Source: Eledone cirrhosa
Taxonomy: Eukaryota
Assembly: GCA_964016885.1 (NCBI GenBank)
Contig: OZ024742.1
Location: 42,718,001-42,782,000 of the forward strand
Length of the DNA stretch: 64,000 bases
Direction: 5' to 3'
Shown: piece by piece, positions 6,761 to 59,384 of the stretch
Layout: every line of letters starts with the position of its first letter
How positions within the stretch are numbered: the stretch's first letter is position 1
Position numbers and translations under genes: made by a program
The notes under the pieces: model-generated
Database searches by the model: none
What the model was told of the DNA's origin: nothing
The model's input: only the letters and a program-made list of their open reading frames with translations

Positions 6761-7306
6761 TCTATTTATCTTATGTATCCAACTATCTCTCTCTCTCTCT
6801 CCCTCTCTCTATATATATATCTATCTCTATATCTATCTATCTGTCTGTCTATCCATTTAACTATTCACCCATTCTACTGTCCAACTATCTGTTTGTCAGT
6901 CAGTTTTATTTGTTTGTCACTCTTCATTGTCTCCACCACCAGTAAATTAAGCAAAGGTTCACTCCTTCTCTTTTCATCCTCCCCCACTGCTCTCTTACCC
7001 CTGCTCCAATCCAATCTATCTAGTGCCAAGAGACAGTTTAGGTCAGACAAAGTAGGGTAGTGTGGTGGCTGTGTTTGCTATTGTGCCAATGAAGAGGTTA
7101 AAGGTCAGACGGTGTTTCTTTACTAATTAGAACTGGGAACCAGCAACAATATATTAGTTGTTCTGTATTCACTCTCTGTCTATCCATCTACCTATCCATC
7201 CATCTATCTATCTATCTTTCTGTCTATCTATTTATCTATCTGTCTGCTGCCTGTCTGTCTATCTATCTATCTATCTGTCTCACTATATATATATATACAT
7301 ATATAT

Positions 7307-7565
7307 AATTGAGATGAGCGGAACAAGTAAACTTTAAACATTCTTTTAAAATAAATTAAAATACAATTTAAATATTCACCTATCCAAATTGCTTTTACCG
7401 ATGGTTTCGCCTCACAAATGATTGGAAATTCAAAGAACTTCCAATGGAAAGATCGGCTCTTCAGAAAGCTATTTCCATTACATAGGACGTAACATCCCAT
7501 AGCAAGCAAAATGCATCGCCAACTGCCAATGACCTACATGTGAACTGGTCGTCTAGTGAAAGAAT
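7307..7565 (-). mobile_element. Penelope-like pLTR/retrozyme-like fragment carrying a hammerhead ribozyme
   Basis: Homologous to 43895-44131, including the shared GCTCATCTCAATT(TA)n terminus. Confidence 0.7.
7386..7474 (-). ncRNA. Type I hammerhead ribozyme with extended stem II
   Basis: Minus strand: GCUUU-CUGAAGA-GCC...AUUGGAAGUUC uuu GAAUUUCCAAU...GGC-GAAA-CC auc GG-UA-AAAGC. All core nucleotides present, G10.1-C11.1 pair, GUA cleavage triplet, stem I closes. Confidence 0.85.
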
Positions 7566-7574
7566 ATATATATC

Positions 7575-7918
7575 CTTGAGCAAGAGTTTACTCAGCTGTA
7601 GAAATGAGATGATAGGGACTGGGGTCCCTATCATTCCACTGCAAAGTGGTCGTGGAGGTGCCACGGCAAAAAAGCACCCAGCCCACACTGTAAAGTGGAC
7701 GTGTAGGCCCCACGGAAAATAAAGCACCCAGCACTCACTGTAAATGAGGTTGGTGTTAGGAAGGGCATCCAGCTGTAGAAATCAAGCCAGAATCAGTTCC
7801 CATATGAGCAAGACAAGGTCAGCCGACCAGACACTGCCCACAACAAGACAATCCGTCTAACCCATGCTAGCGTGGAAGAACGGACGTAAAACGGTGATGA
7901 TGATGATGATGATGATGA
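7575..7918 (+). mobile_element. SINE family A, 5'-truncated (two internal units, alternative tail)
   Basis: Direct homology to 2617-2800 and 4245-4365. Confidence 0.85.
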
Positions 7919-7919
7919 T

Positions 7920-8282
7920 ATACTGCATGTCATTCCAGTGTGTACCAGTTGACACTATTGTCTGACCACAGCTGTTTATGCCTGCTGATATAGATAGATA
8001 AATATATAAATCATCATCATCATCATCATTATCATCATAGTTGTTTTTACATCCGCTCTTCCACACTTGCATGTATATATATATATAAATGTATATATAT
8101 ATATAAATGTATATATATATATAAATGTATATATATATATAAATACATGCAAGAGCAGATGTAAAAACAATGATGATGATAATGATGATGATTTATATAT
8201 TTATCTATCTATATCAGCAGGCATAAACAGCTGTGGTCAGACAATAGTGTCAACTGGTGCACACTGGAATGACATGCAGTAT
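7920..8282. repeat. Long near-perfect inverted repeat (~140-155 bp arms) with (TA)n spacer
   Basis: ATACTGCATGTCATTCCAGTGTGTACCAGTTGACACTATTGTCTGACCACAGCTG... is mirrored by ...CAGCTGTGGTCAGACAATAGTGTCAACTGGTGCACACTGGAATGACATGCAGTAT. Confidence 0.95.
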
Positions 8283-8432
8283 GACAACAACAACAATAAC
8301 AACAAAAGTGATAAAAGCTACACCTACAACAACAATAATAACTGCAAAACAAAAAGAGCATCAACATCATCAACAACATCAGAAACAGCAACAACAATAA
8401 CCACCACAACACCTCATACTTGTCCATCTTAA

Positions 8433-13870: not shown

Positions 13871-13924
<54 letters not shown>

Positions 13925-14433
13925 ATTCACTTCCATCCTGACATCACTAGCCCCGTTTTTTCCTCATGTGCTTTTTCATAAATACACATGAAGGCGAACT
14001 AGCCAGTTTTAGAATTCCTTTTTTCGGACTATATTACTGTGAGAGCCCTGGTTTTCTGTTGAACTCTGCTGATGAATGATATTCCAACCGTGACCATCTC
14101 CACTGAAAGTTTTCATGAAATAGTCTTTTAAGACTATACAGAGCATTTGATGTTATTCCAAATTGAAGGATAAGTGTTTCAAACTTTGTTTTATCATGAG
14201 TTAAAGGTCTATAGATTTTTCCATGGATTTTACTAAATTCTGTGGATGAATTTGTATCCTGATTCTCTTTTGAGATGAGTTTGAGTTATTTTTCCTAAAT
14301 CTTTCGTTAACTACTTTTCCCATCTTGACGCTATAGTCGCATATATGTTATAGAATGCCGTTAGCTTCTTGCTAAAACAATCTCTATACGTCTCATTTAT
14401 ATATATATATATATATATAAGCAGTTACAGCAG

Positions 14434-25973: not shown

Positions 25974-26711
25974 ATGCCCCGATATCGAGACACAATGCTA
26001 GATTGTAAAGTTTACGTTGGGGATCTTCCCCGTGATGCATCAGAAAAAGAGTTGGAACGGTCTTTTCGCCACTACGGTCCACTGAAAAGCGTGTGGGTAG
26101 CTCGAAACCCGGCTGGCTTTGCCTTCGTTGAGTACGAAGACCCGCGCGATGCCGAGGATGCGATCCGCGCCCTCGATGGCAAGACGATGTGCGGGGTTCG
26201 GGTCCGCGTGGAACACTCCACGGGCAAAGTGCGACCAAAGCCATGGTCGCGCGGTGGTGGCGGGGGAGGTGGTGGTGGTGGTGGAGGCGGTCGTGGTCCT
26301 TCTAGGCCTCGGCGTCCGTTTAACCCCGAGGACCGATGCTACGAATGTGGCGAAAGGGGACACTACGCCTACGAGTGTAACCGCTACAACCGAAGGCGGA
26401 GATCGACCGGTGGTGGTATGGGTGGTGGTCCCGGAGGTGGCGGTGGATTTGGAGGTGGAGGCGGCGGCTTCGGTGGTGGTAGTGGTGGTGGTCACGGAGT
26501 TGGTTCGTCAGGTCGATCGAGAGGTGGAGGTGGTGGACGAAGAAGCTACAGTCGAAGTCGAAGCCGTAGTAGTAGTCGTAGCCGAAGTCGCAGTCCCAGG
26601 AGTCGCACTAAGTCACGTAGTCGCAGCTTCTCGCCACAGTCTAGGTCATCCCACTCGCCTCTGAGTCGGGGTAGGGACAGTCCTCTGGCCAGGAACGGCA
26701 CAGACGACTAA
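25974..26711 (+). CDS. SRSF7: Serine/arginine-rich splicing factor, SRSF3/SRSF7 family (SRSF7/9G8-like, with zinc knuckle); single-exon CDS, 245 aa
   Basis: [11 protein letters not shown]...[45 protein letters not shown]; CCHC knuckle [14 protein letters not shown]; RS domain [18 protein letters not shown]; ORF intact. SRSF7 rather than SRSF3 is inferred from the knuckle. Confidence 0.95.
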
Positions 26712-31587: not shown

Positions 31588-32164
31588 CACTAATATGCAT
31601 ACAAATGACTACAAGGTTGCCTGTGTATGTGATAAACATACATGCTTTCTGTGTATTATGCATTGGTGTGGGAGTATATATATATATATATATATATGTA
31701 TATAATATATACACACACACACACACACTATTTCATGTACACGTGTATATAGGCATTGTAAGTATTACATCAATATACACATGCATACATATATATTTAC
31801 AGACATGCACTAAGTAGTTTATGTATACACAAATGTATGTATAATGTGTCTATAATGTGACCGAACCATAAACAATATTGCATGTAATTTACTATTACTT
31901 CTGCTATTATAAATGTTTACCTAGATTTATTTTGCTTAGTTTTTAAGGAAAATCCATGAGTTTGTGTTTTTTCTTATTATTTGAGAAATTGTAATGTTTC
32001 AATATTGTTTGTTAGGGTATACATAACCCAGTATAAAGTATGACTAGATAATATTGCTTCATCTTTTCAATTTATACATTTTGGTTGAATTTTAATGATT
32101 TCACATATGACATTTGGACTGTGGTGTGTGTATTGTACTTGTATGCTTTGCGTGTGTGTGTGAA

Positions 32165-41015
<8,851 letters not shown>

Positions 41016-43749: not shown

Positions 43750-43792
<43 letters not shown>

Positions 43793-43894
43793 AGGTAAAT
43801 ATCTCTCTGGGTACTAAGTACGCATAAAGATATATAGGGTGTCTATAATATAATTGTTCGATGATACTAATTTGAAATACCAGAACTATAAAAC

Positions 43895-44131
43895 TTGAGA
43901 TGAGCAGAACAAACAAACATTAAACAATTCCTTAAAAAAATTAAAAAATGATCCTATAGAGTGGTAATAGCTATCTGATGAACTTTACTTTTCCGTTAGA
44001 AATTCTCTGAATTTAGAATTTCTAATCTTTTGTAAAGAGAAACCGCCGGTAATAGCATTATGAACAGGTAGATATTTAAATCATTTTTTAAGGGGATTGT
44101 TTAATGTTTGTTTGTTCTGCTCATCTCAATT
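43895..44131 (+). mobile_element. Penelope-like/retrozyme-like module: hammerhead flanked by ~45-bp inverted repeats
   Basis: TTGAGATGAGCAGAACAAACAAACATTAAACAATTCCTTAAAAAA ... TTTTTTAAGGGGATTGTTTAATGTTTGTTTGTTCTGCTCATCTCAA. Confidence 0.75.
43966..44060 (+). ncRNA. Type I hammerhead ribozyme with extended stem II
   Basis: GCUAU-CUGAUGA-aCUUUAC...UUAGAAAUUCU(loop)AGAAUUUCUAA...GUAAAGa-GAAA-CC gcc GG-UA-AUAGC. Predicted cleavage after 44051; 10.1/11.1 is A-A (non-canonical). Confidence 0.8.
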
Positions 44132-44539
44132 ATATATATATATGTATGTATATATATATTTACAAGTGAAGCGCTACCTAGGTTTCAAGATCCAGTTATG
44201 ACCCACCTCCGTAGACTGCACGTGTAGGAGTGATCGAAACTGTGACCTCAGTTATCGGGAGCTAGTACGAGTTTTCTGCATATTCATTGTTCTGTCTCGG
44301 TAACAATCTCAGTCTAACCACATCTCATGTTGCACATGTTCTCTCTTATAACACATTGTGTATCACCCCATTCCCCTTCGGGTTATTTTAATAGGTGTAC
44401 TAGTTTGTGTGTGTGTAAGGTCTCGTTTGCTAGCGGTAGCAGCAATATCACTTACTGTCGCGAACGTTACAATAGATCGAGTTGCCTGGCCTGGCCTTCA
44501 TTTTTTATTAGTCTTATTTTTATTAATAAAAAATATGAC

Positions 44540-58187: not shown

Positions 58188-59384
58188 TACTCAGAGGTGC
58201 TGAAAAGTTCCTGGCTTTGGGTGAAAGAAAATACAGGAGGATCAGTTAATTATGATTTTATTCAACATACTCCCCCTCTCAGATTCACACACTTATTGCA
58301 GCAGTCCTTCAGTTTTTCTAAGCCCTGTAGAAAGAACTGAGAAGTTTGGACCTCCATCCAGGTCTCTGTAGCAGCGATCACTTCCGAATCAGTGTGAAAT
58401 TTTCTTTGCTTGAGATGTTTCTTCAGTTGTGGAAAGAGGTGGGTGGTCTTGCAATTTGAAGCCAAAGTTACGTATTTTCTGTAGAGTTTCATGTGCTGGT
58501 GCATTATGTCAAAAAAAAAAAAAAAAGAAAAGACACTACAGCTCAGCTTTCCATGGCATTTCTGCTTCAAAGCTTCATGCAGTTTGTCCAACAGAGACAT
58601 GTAGTATTCTGCATTGATGGTGCGATCCTTTGGCAGGTATTTTGAGGAGTAGTCCATCTTTATCCCAGAATCTTTCCAGCTGACTCTTGGGTCTGAAACT
58701 ACTTGGGATATGGTGAATCACTGTGGTGCCACTCTATTGAGTGCTGCTTGGTGTGGGGATCATAATGATGAAGCCACCTTTCATCCATGATGACTAAATA
58801 CGCCATAAAATAAGCCTCTCCCACTGCAAACCAGTGAAAAATCACCTTCAATGTTATCACTGATGCACTTTTGATCTGTGTTCAGGCATTTTGGTACTCA
58901 TTTTGCAAAAAGCTTTCCCATGTCCAGAATGTTGTAGCCAACTTTTTTGCAAGAAACCCTCCAGTCTCATCTATGACTTGAGCTGAAACCCGGTGGTCCT
59001 CGAGAATCATGATGTGCACAGCGTTGGCTGTCCTGACCATGGTTCATCTGAAACCTTGAAATGACTAGTCCGAAACCTTGACACTCAGATTTTCAGTGTG
59101 GAGTAAGATGGGTAGCCATCTTTCATCTCACCATGGGTTTCTGCCACTCCTTTGCCTTGCAAGAAGAGGAACTTTATGACCGCCCATGCTTCAATTTTAC
59201 CAAAATACACTAGGAGCTGCCATCATGCATTAAAGCTGCAAAAAAAGAAACTGATATATTGTATACCATCATGATTTTTTGCAGATCTTCTTCTAAATAG
59301 TTGTCCTACTTCTCCTGTAAAGGTAACAACTCTATCTTTTTGTGATACCCCTAAAGCCAAGCACTTTTCAGTCCCCCCCCCTTT
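58188..59384 (-). mobile_element. Mariner element, ~1.2 kb, with decayed transposase
   Basis: TIRs GGTGCTGAAAAGTTCCTGGCTTTGGG / CCCTAAAGCCAAGCACTTTTCAGTCCC; translation YLPKDRTINAEYYMSLLDKL...LFPQLKKHLKQRKFHTDSEVIAATETW...FFLQGLEKL...KCVNLRG. Confidence 0.9.

What the first reader, a model, noticed from the sequence alone, without database searches (positions are those of the whole stretch)
7386..7474. Most canonical hammerhead copy, likely active, on the minus strand
Seen: complete core CUGAAGA/GAAA, canonical G10.1-C11.1 pair, GUA triplet, and a stem I of 5 bp extending another 4 bp past an A-A mismatch (AAAU/AUUU). Inference: the best candidate for catalytic activity. It would cut any minus-strand transcript between 7396 and 7395.
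Basis: partly seen in the sequence, partly recalled or inferred. Interest (0 to 1): 0.75.

Follow-up and report, generated by a model that had tools for sequence, protein, structure and literature searches.

The report
Decayed hammerhead in truncated retrozyme copy
This is a real hammerhead (self-cutting RNA) motif, but it sits in a single cut-off copy of a common ribozyme-bearing repeat and has a mutation that likely weakens the two-copy fold the family appears to use, so it is an ordinary member and probably not the best candidate for activity.

Summary
The motif is present as described: a type I hammerhead on the minus strand, predicted cut between 7396 and 7395. It lies in a solo, 5'-truncated, ~265-nt copy (7562-~7298) of a non-coding repeat with 457-483-nt units. 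One family pattern has 1,353 exact genome matches, including a near-identical 19+9-unit array. Copies end at two fixed sites in (TA)n and form inverted pairs: a non-LTR retrozyme with Penelope-type footprints. Stems I and II covary across subfamilies. The 'most canonical, likely active' reading is weak. The family keeps a palindromic stem III (ACCGNCGGU); this copy has ACCAUCGGU (52 matches versus 1,353; arisen repeatedly), and its predicted self-duplex falls from -11.3 to -3.9 kcal/mol. G10.1-C11.1 occurs in only 5 of 24 representatives. The AAAU/AUUU extension is not conserved (53% paired); those bases may instead form a GGAAA/UUUCC pseudoknot. No transcription was shown. A younger hammerhead at 14057-14150 (+) is a better candidate. 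The scan has noted similar retrozyme families elsewhere in this genome.

The parts
7298..7562 (-). Solo, 5'-truncated copy of a ~482-nt retrozyme-like repeat unit (unit positions ~286 to ~94 counted from the cut site, 31-nt internal deletion near 7530), with (AT)n on the 5' side and (TA)n on the 3' side
   Evidence: nearest relatives 93% identical
7472..7476 (-).
   Evidence: 97.5% of cells paired in 24 representatives, 1 double change; genome counts GG/CC 1496, AG/CC 33, GG/CT 41, AG/CT 4; inferred
7465..7469 (-). Stem I, 5' strand GCUUU
   Evidence: 92.5% paired; one pair reads G-C 8, A-U 7, U-A 4, U-G 1, unpaired 4 of 24
7458..7464 (-). Catalytic core CUGAAGA (C3-A9)
   Evidence: sequence; invariant but for position 7 in alignment A1
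7409..7457 (-). Two-part stem II: basal helix 7457-7451/7415-7409 (here with G.A, A.G, U.U), internal loop UUUCC/CAUUU, apical 11-bp hairpin 7445-7435/7431-7421
   Evidence: 6 of 7 basal pairs and 4 of 11 apical pairs have changes on both sides
7397..7408 (-). GAAA core strand and stem III ACCAUCGGU; 7402 is A where the family has G
7395..7396 (-). Predicted cleavage site after A17 of the GUA triplet
   Evidence: established hammerhead numbering; not assayed
7391..7395 (-). Stem I, 3' strand AAAGC
7298..7313 (-). Fixed 3' end of the insertion (unit site ~94) running into (TA)n
   Evidence: 41 of 71 family segments end at unit 92-94
43779..44136 (.). Second family insertion, other subfamily (~70% identical), two opposed arms ending at unit sites 205 and 94; hammerhead at ~43952-44070 (+) keeps the palindrome ACCGCCGGU but has A.A at 10.1/11.1

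Best explanation
The 7474-7386 motif is the type I hammerhead of a non-coding tandem-unit repeat family, and this copy is a solo, 5'-truncated insertion that likely cleaves poorly because it has lost the stem III palindrome that the family is inferred to use for two-copy folding. Shown: the motif, the family, the arrays, the fixed 3' ends in (TA)n, the inverted arms, covariation of stems I and II, and the rarity and repeated origin of the 7402 variant. Inferred: arrays are transcribed as multimers; neighbouring hammerheads pair through ACCGNCGGU to build an 8-bp stem III and cut out unit-length RNA; that RNA is likely circularised; a Penelope-like RT/GIY-YIG protein acting in trans nicks AT-rich DNA and starts reverse transcription at one of two internal sites about 94 and 205 nt after the cut site. 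The window copy would be a short product of that step that has drifted since.
For: Family: 49 matches, 2,063 first-look candidates, 40 scored; 1,353 exact pattern matches, reversed control 0. Array: 19 + 9 opposed units, 456-457 nt, the 16 equal-length units of 18 compared differ by 0-2 bases. Ends: 60 of 71 segments end at unit 92-94 (41) or 197-208 (19), 5' ends are scattered, segments up to 693 nt exceed one unit; 9 of 15 loci with opposed arms have one arm at each site (counted by hand). Covariation score 0.226 versus 0.144 shuffled (0 of 500) and at most 0.080 when slid. In 97 distinct motifs the stem III centre varies (U 60, C 26, A 3) around an intact palindrome in 89. Other hammerhead families near PLE loci also have palindromic or near-palindromic stem III. 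Self-duplex -11.3 (family) versus -3.9 (window), mixed -8.3 kcal/mol. One young unit folds as a circle at -120.0 versus -90.2 +/- 5.4 kcal/mol for 40 shuffles. A PLE-type GIY-YIG family is abundant (298 matches, 150 of 30,938 candidates scored). Papers: PMC4209133, PMC7229834, PMC11167929, PMC8557442, 10.64898/2026.07.22.740005.
Against: No cleavage or expression data. Coral and mussel retrozyme hammerheads with short helix III cleave from single-unit constructs (0.8 and 0.1 per min; PMC7229834 passages and section 14), and the 7402 change lies in the loop of the monomer fold, so it may matter little for a monomer. Nearest-neighbour models rate the monomer fold equally low for window and family copies (0.0016 versus 0.0015) and ignore pseudoknots. 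No sequence link between this unit and the pseudo-LTRs of the 30 PLE loci fetched (one locus, L129, holds a family copy nearby). 5' ends are not enriched at the cut site. In the one PLE studied in vitro, cleavage was not needed for insertion (PMC11167929, part 2).
Confidence: 0.78

Rival explanations
1. The family works as a monomer stabilised by the GGAAA/UUUCC pseudoknot; this copy keeps core, pseudoknot and G10.1-C11.1 and is a competent ribozyme that would cut read-through minus-strand RNA.
For: Core, stem I, three stem III pairs and both pseudoknot strands are intact; changes at 7436/7430 keep their pair; invertebrate retrozyme monomers cleave (PMC7229834); about 40% of hammerheads are predicted to use a stem I-II pseudoknot (PMC3088659 passages).
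Against: Palindrome kept across all subfamilies; stem III hairpin +0.4 kcal/mol; the pseudoknot has no compensated subfamily (4 double changes, 0.9 expected, Fisher p 0.02, confounded by copy age); no transcript shown.
Confidence: 0.15
2. The copy is a solo pseudo-LTR fragment of an autonomous Penelope-like element rather than of a non-autonomous retrozyme.
For: Same insertion footprints; palindromic stem III is typical of PLE hammerheads (PMC4209133); an intron-like GT...AG stretch follows the hammerhead in this subfamily.
Against: Units follow each other directly with no ORF between; the one 3.9-kb-spaced cluster checked was a duplicated LINE fragment; the 3' AG is absent in the youngest subfamily.
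Confidence: 0.05
3. A DNA-level satellite or chance motif with no RNA-level selection.
For: No Rfam match; folding z only -1.59.
Against: Compensatory changes in stems I and II around an invariant core; dispersed copies with fixed 3' ends.
Confidence: 0.02

Closest known systems
Metazoan non-LTR retrozymes (Cervera and de la Pena 2020, PMC7229834; Li, Clavereau and Pollet 2026, 10.64898/2026.07.22.740005)
   Same: Non-coding tandem units, one type I hammerhead each, GC about 35%, monomers to long multimers, highly self-paired unit.
   Different: Unit 457-483 nt (above the 170-400 nt of the 2020 paper, inside the 51-972 of the preprint); 49-51-nt two-part stem II; 10.1-11.1 mostly mismatched; circular RNA and expression not shown. 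This copy is a sub-unit fragment and would not count as 'active' under the preprint's two-unit rule.
Penelope-like element pseudo-LTR hammerheads (PMC4209133; PMC11167929; PMC8557442)
   Same: Type I, short palindromic stem III, 5-bp stem I, long stem II; 5' truncation, inverted 5' copies, AT-rich or (TA)n targets, two fixed 3' ends.
   Different: No RT or GIY-YIG ORF in the unit; the two ends are about 110 nt apart rather than 30-40; no partner element identified; G10.1-C11.1 is described as highly conserved in PLE motifs but is not here.
Pseudoknot-stabilised hammerheads (Perreault et al. 2011, PMC3088659) and axolotl HHR_Amex2 (PMC7229834)
   Same: Candidate 5-bp pairing between the stem I side and stem II side; Amex2 also has a U.U mismatch at the base of stem II.
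   Different: Here the partner is an internal loop of a long stem II; support is conservation, not clear covariation.

Membership tests
Type I hammerhead ribozyme | Core CUGANGA / GAAA / NUH around a three-way junction | tested here: met
Type I hammerhead ribozyme | Stems I-III form, open end at stem I | tested here: met
   stems I and II covary, stem III invariant; stem III is marginal as a hairpin
Type I hammerhead ribozyme | Stem I-stem II tertiary contact | tested here: inconclusive
   candidate pseudoknot 97.5% paired, weak covariation
Type I hammerhead ribozyme | Self-cleavage | not testable with these tools
   needs an assay
Type I hammerhead ribozyme | Match to an Rfam hammerhead model | tested here: not met
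   not a defining feature, the long stem II probably explains it (inference)
Non-LTR retrozyme | Tandem non-coding units with one type I hammerhead each | tested here: met
   family level: 19+9-unit array and other multimers; this copy itself is a sub-unit fragment
Non-LTR retrozyme | No coding capacity between hammerheads | tested here: met
   units abut directly; no ORF of 100 codons over the copy
Non-LTR retrozyme | Expressed as linear and circular unit-length RNA | not testable with these tools
   no RNA holder listed
Autonomous Penelope-like element | RT and GIY-YIG ORF between pseudo-LTRs | tested here: not met
   only fetched loci were examined
Autonomous Penelope-like element | Insertion footprints: 5' truncation, inverted arm, fixed tail ends, AT-rich target | tested here: met

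The most novel reading that the evidence does not exclude
The family (not this copy) carries a distinct hammerhead architecture: a dimer-forming palindromic stem III, a long two-part stem II whose internal loop locks onto the stem I side by a 5-bp pseudoknot, and free mismatch at 10.1-11.1. Its 457-nt circular RNA is copied round and round from two fixed start sites by a Penelope-like enzyme, giving two-armed arrays of up to 28 units in one event.
Probability: 0.3. Interest if true: 0.5.

Novelty: new member of a known kind. Interest (0 to 1): 0.24.

Why it matters
For this copy: little; it is one ageing insertion among well over a thousand. It shows that looking canonical as a monomer is a poor guide to activity in palindromic type I hammerheads. 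For the family: young near-identical arrays and naturally varied subfamilies give ready constructs to test dimer dependence, the pseudoknot, tolerance of a 10.1-11.1 mismatch, and Penelope-driven copying of circular RNA. Five literature searches listed no paper on cephalopod retrozymes by title or abstract; the library is incomplete.

Tried and rejected
Rfam: no hammerhead match. Expression: no RNA holder listed; three contig sets from one sample, kind not on record, were laid and show only that family sequence is present, nothing on RNA ends. Full-length PLE at the four copies spaced 3.9 kb (C2:144.357-144.369 Mb): rejected, a duplicated LINE ORF1/endonuclease fragment with a 101-nt family piece. 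Sequence link to PLE pseudo-LTRs: none in 30 loci of one PLE family; other PLE families were not examined. Conserved intron after the hammerhead: 5' GT kept, 3' AG absent in the youngest subfamily; left as weak. 5' ends at the cut site as a footprint of cleavage: 7 of 71 within 35 nt, about 10 expected (counted). The A variant as a propagating sub-lineage: rejected on 4 of 43 rows; the mirror change at the same CpG has 5 matches against 13, so CpG decay fits only roughly. Host gene: 20 window ORFs scanned against Pfam gave no gene over the locus; short exons were not searched. Lunse et al. on dimer cleavage is not held; known only from its title and citation in PMC6765202. Sequence look-up in earlier findings gave nothing. 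Supplements of the papers were not opened; they may list mollusc hammerhead sequences.

Full report
Observation. A descriptor scan found three type I hammerhead motifs in the window: 7476-7384 (-), 13055-12994 (-) and 14057-14150 (+); under the strict setting 1 of 100 shuffled windows had a hit. The predicted cut is between 7396 and 7395. Stem III is three pairs with a triloop, and the minimum-energy fold does not form it. Rfam has no matching model.

What it belongs to. A DNA search of the own genome (3.0 Gb) gave 49 matches from 40 scored of 2,063 candidates, the best non-self at 93%. Longer copies show a repeat unit of about 482 nt whose sequence downstream of the hammerhead returns upstream of it. 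Mapping 71 segments (14 duplicate loci left out) on that unit showed scattered 5' ends and two fixed 3' ends running into (TA)n: 41 at unit positions 92-94 and 19 at 197-208 after the cut site (ends uncertain by a few bases because the unit itself has TTTTATA there; loci were chosen for holding the hammerhead). Of 15 loci with opposed arms, 9 have one arm ending at each site (hand count), including a second insertion in this window at 43779-44136. The window copy covers about 265 nt (7562 to ~7298), has a 31-nt deletion and holds one hammerhead. The pattern CTGANGA-N40-70-GAAACCGNCGGTA has 1,353 exact matches and its reversed control none. One subfamily forms a head-to-head array of 19 + 9 units of 456-457 nt that differ by 0-2 bases, with the two outer ends at the same two sites. 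One such unit folds as a circle 5.5 standard deviations below 40 shuffles. No ORF lies between units.

Structure under selection. In 24 hand-picked subfamily representatives (alignment A1) stem I is 92.5% paired with one pair read as G-C, A-U or U-A; 6 of 7 basal and 4 of 11 apical stem II pairs change on both sides; stem III is invariant; the covariation score is 0.226 against 0.144 for shuffles (0 of 500) and at most 0.080 for slid registers (relatedness inflates such scores). G10.1-C11.1 is present in 5 of 24 and unpaired in 17 of 24; among 97 distinct motifs it is G-C 38, A.C 24, U.U 18 (sample biased to the two window subfamilies); the youngest array has U.U. The AAAU/AUUU extension is 52.8% paired. 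The same 5' bases belong to a conserved GGAAA (7476-7472) that is complementary to UUUCC (7450-7446) in the internal loop of stem II: 97.5% paired with one double change. Genome counts for its outer pair are 1,496 G/C, 33 A/C, 41 G/U and 4 A/U, against 0.9 expected for the last. This is a plausible pseudoknot, not a proven one.

Why this copy is a poor candidate. The family's stem III strand is the odd palindrome ACCGNCGGU with a free centre (89 of 97 motifs intact), and other hammerhead families in this genome also show palindromic or near-palindromic stem III. Published work links this to dimeric cleavage (PMC4209133 parts 1-2 of 4 read; PMC6765202 and PMC3088659 passages). The window has ACCAUCGGU: 52 matches against 1,353 (two of the 52 look unrelated), 13 against 132 within the subfamily. 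The four A copies among 43 rows need three changes on a tree built without stem III and are rejected as one clade (p-AU 0.00013), so the change is recurrent decay, likely at a CpG. The predicted self-duplex drops from -11.3 to -3.9 kcal/mol, -8.3 with an intact partner, while the hairpin is +0.4 either way. The copy differs from the majority of 29 relatives at 17 of 267 positions, 9 of them shared by at most 5 relatives. A profile search finds no second family hammerhead on its strand in the window. Against this reading: coral and mussel retrozyme monomers do cleave (PMC7229834, passages and section 14 read), the change is in the monomer's loop, the model gives window and family copies the same low monomer fraction (0.0016, 0.0015), and the changes at 7436 and 7430 keep their pair. 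Monomer activity stays open. By comparison the unrelated motif at 14057-14150 (+) belongs to a very young ~630-nt tandem family (39 of 39 other scored matches 99% identical), differs by one base next to stem I from the 11 copies compared, and has a -5.3 kcal/mol stem III, though its modelled active fraction is also low (0.002).

Mechanism. Inferred: multimeric transcripts from arrays fold neighbouring hammerheads into dimers, release unit-length RNA, which is likely ligated to a circle, and a Penelope-like protein reverse-transcribes it from two internal sites at nicks in AT-rich DNA. The footprints match those described for PLEs (PMC8557442 passages; PMC11167929 parts 1-2 of 4, which shows AT-rich cleavage, two internal start sites, and also that ribozyme cleavage was not needed in vitro). 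A PLE-type GIY-YIG family is abundant here (the domain name rests on my recall of the motif, Pfam gave no hit), but no sequence link to this unit was found in 30 loci. Uncleaved multimers or template jumping could also give more-than-unit copies. No RNA data were available.

Comparison and novelty. The family meets the genomic tests for a metazoan non-LTR retrozyme (PMC7229834; preprint 10.64898/2026.07.22.740005, parts 1-2 of 5 read) and fails the ORF test for an autonomous PLE. Searches for octopus or cephalopod with hammerhead or retrozyme listed no paper describing such a family. Earlier notes of this scan report many similar families in this genome (975 notes fit the look-up; unchecked), none by sequence for this stretch. 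Verdict: real motif, new member of a known kind, this copy ordinary and partly decayed; interest 0.24.

Noticed in passing
window 14057-14150 (+), element ~13916-14419: Type I hammerhead with a 7-bp stem III plus tetraloop and AUA triplet, in a very young ~630-nt tandem family (99% identical copies, dimers to tetramers); a better activity candidate than the finding.
   Followed up: partly
window 13055-12994 (-): Third, unrelated type I hammerhead: G.U at 10.1/11.1, near-palindromic stem III.
   Followed up: partly
window 43779-44136: Two-armed insertion of another subfamily of the same family, with a 7-nt insertion in the apical loop and a changed GGAAA.
   Followed up: yes
L094/L095 (G000:C1:156.425-156.439 Mb): 19 + 9 near-identical 457-nt units head to head, both outer ends at the family's fixed sites; best source of test constructs.
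   Followed up: partly
window 25974-26711 (+): Uninterrupted 245-codon ORF with RRM, zinc knuckle and an RS-rich tail, resembling an SR splicing factor (name recalled); possibly a retrocopy.
   Followed up: no
window 32164-41013: 8.8-kb AT-dinucleotide-rich array with about 9% GC and a flip of GC skew near 38 kb.
   Followed up: no
window 7898-8032 and 8170-8304: 135-nt inverted repeat, 91% complementary, flanking an (AT)-rich tandem stretch.
   Followed up: no
window 58262-58657 (-): Transposase_1 (partial DDE) fragment.
   Followed up: no
L061/L062 (G000:C2:144.357-144.372 Mb): Tandem ~3.9-kb duplications of a LINE-type ORF1 plus endonuclease fragment, each with a 101-nt family piece; a GIY-YIG-like fragment lies upstream.
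   Followed up: partly
L116-L140: Several further hammerhead families with palindromic or near-palindromic stem III occur within 1.5 kb of PLE-type hits (14 motifs printed from 30 loci).
   Followed up: no
window 7379-7290 (-): Intron-like stretch (GT after AG, pyrimidine-rich end) directly after the hammerhead; the 3' AG is present in older subfamilies, coincides with the first fixed 3' end, and is absent in the youngest.
   Followed up: partly
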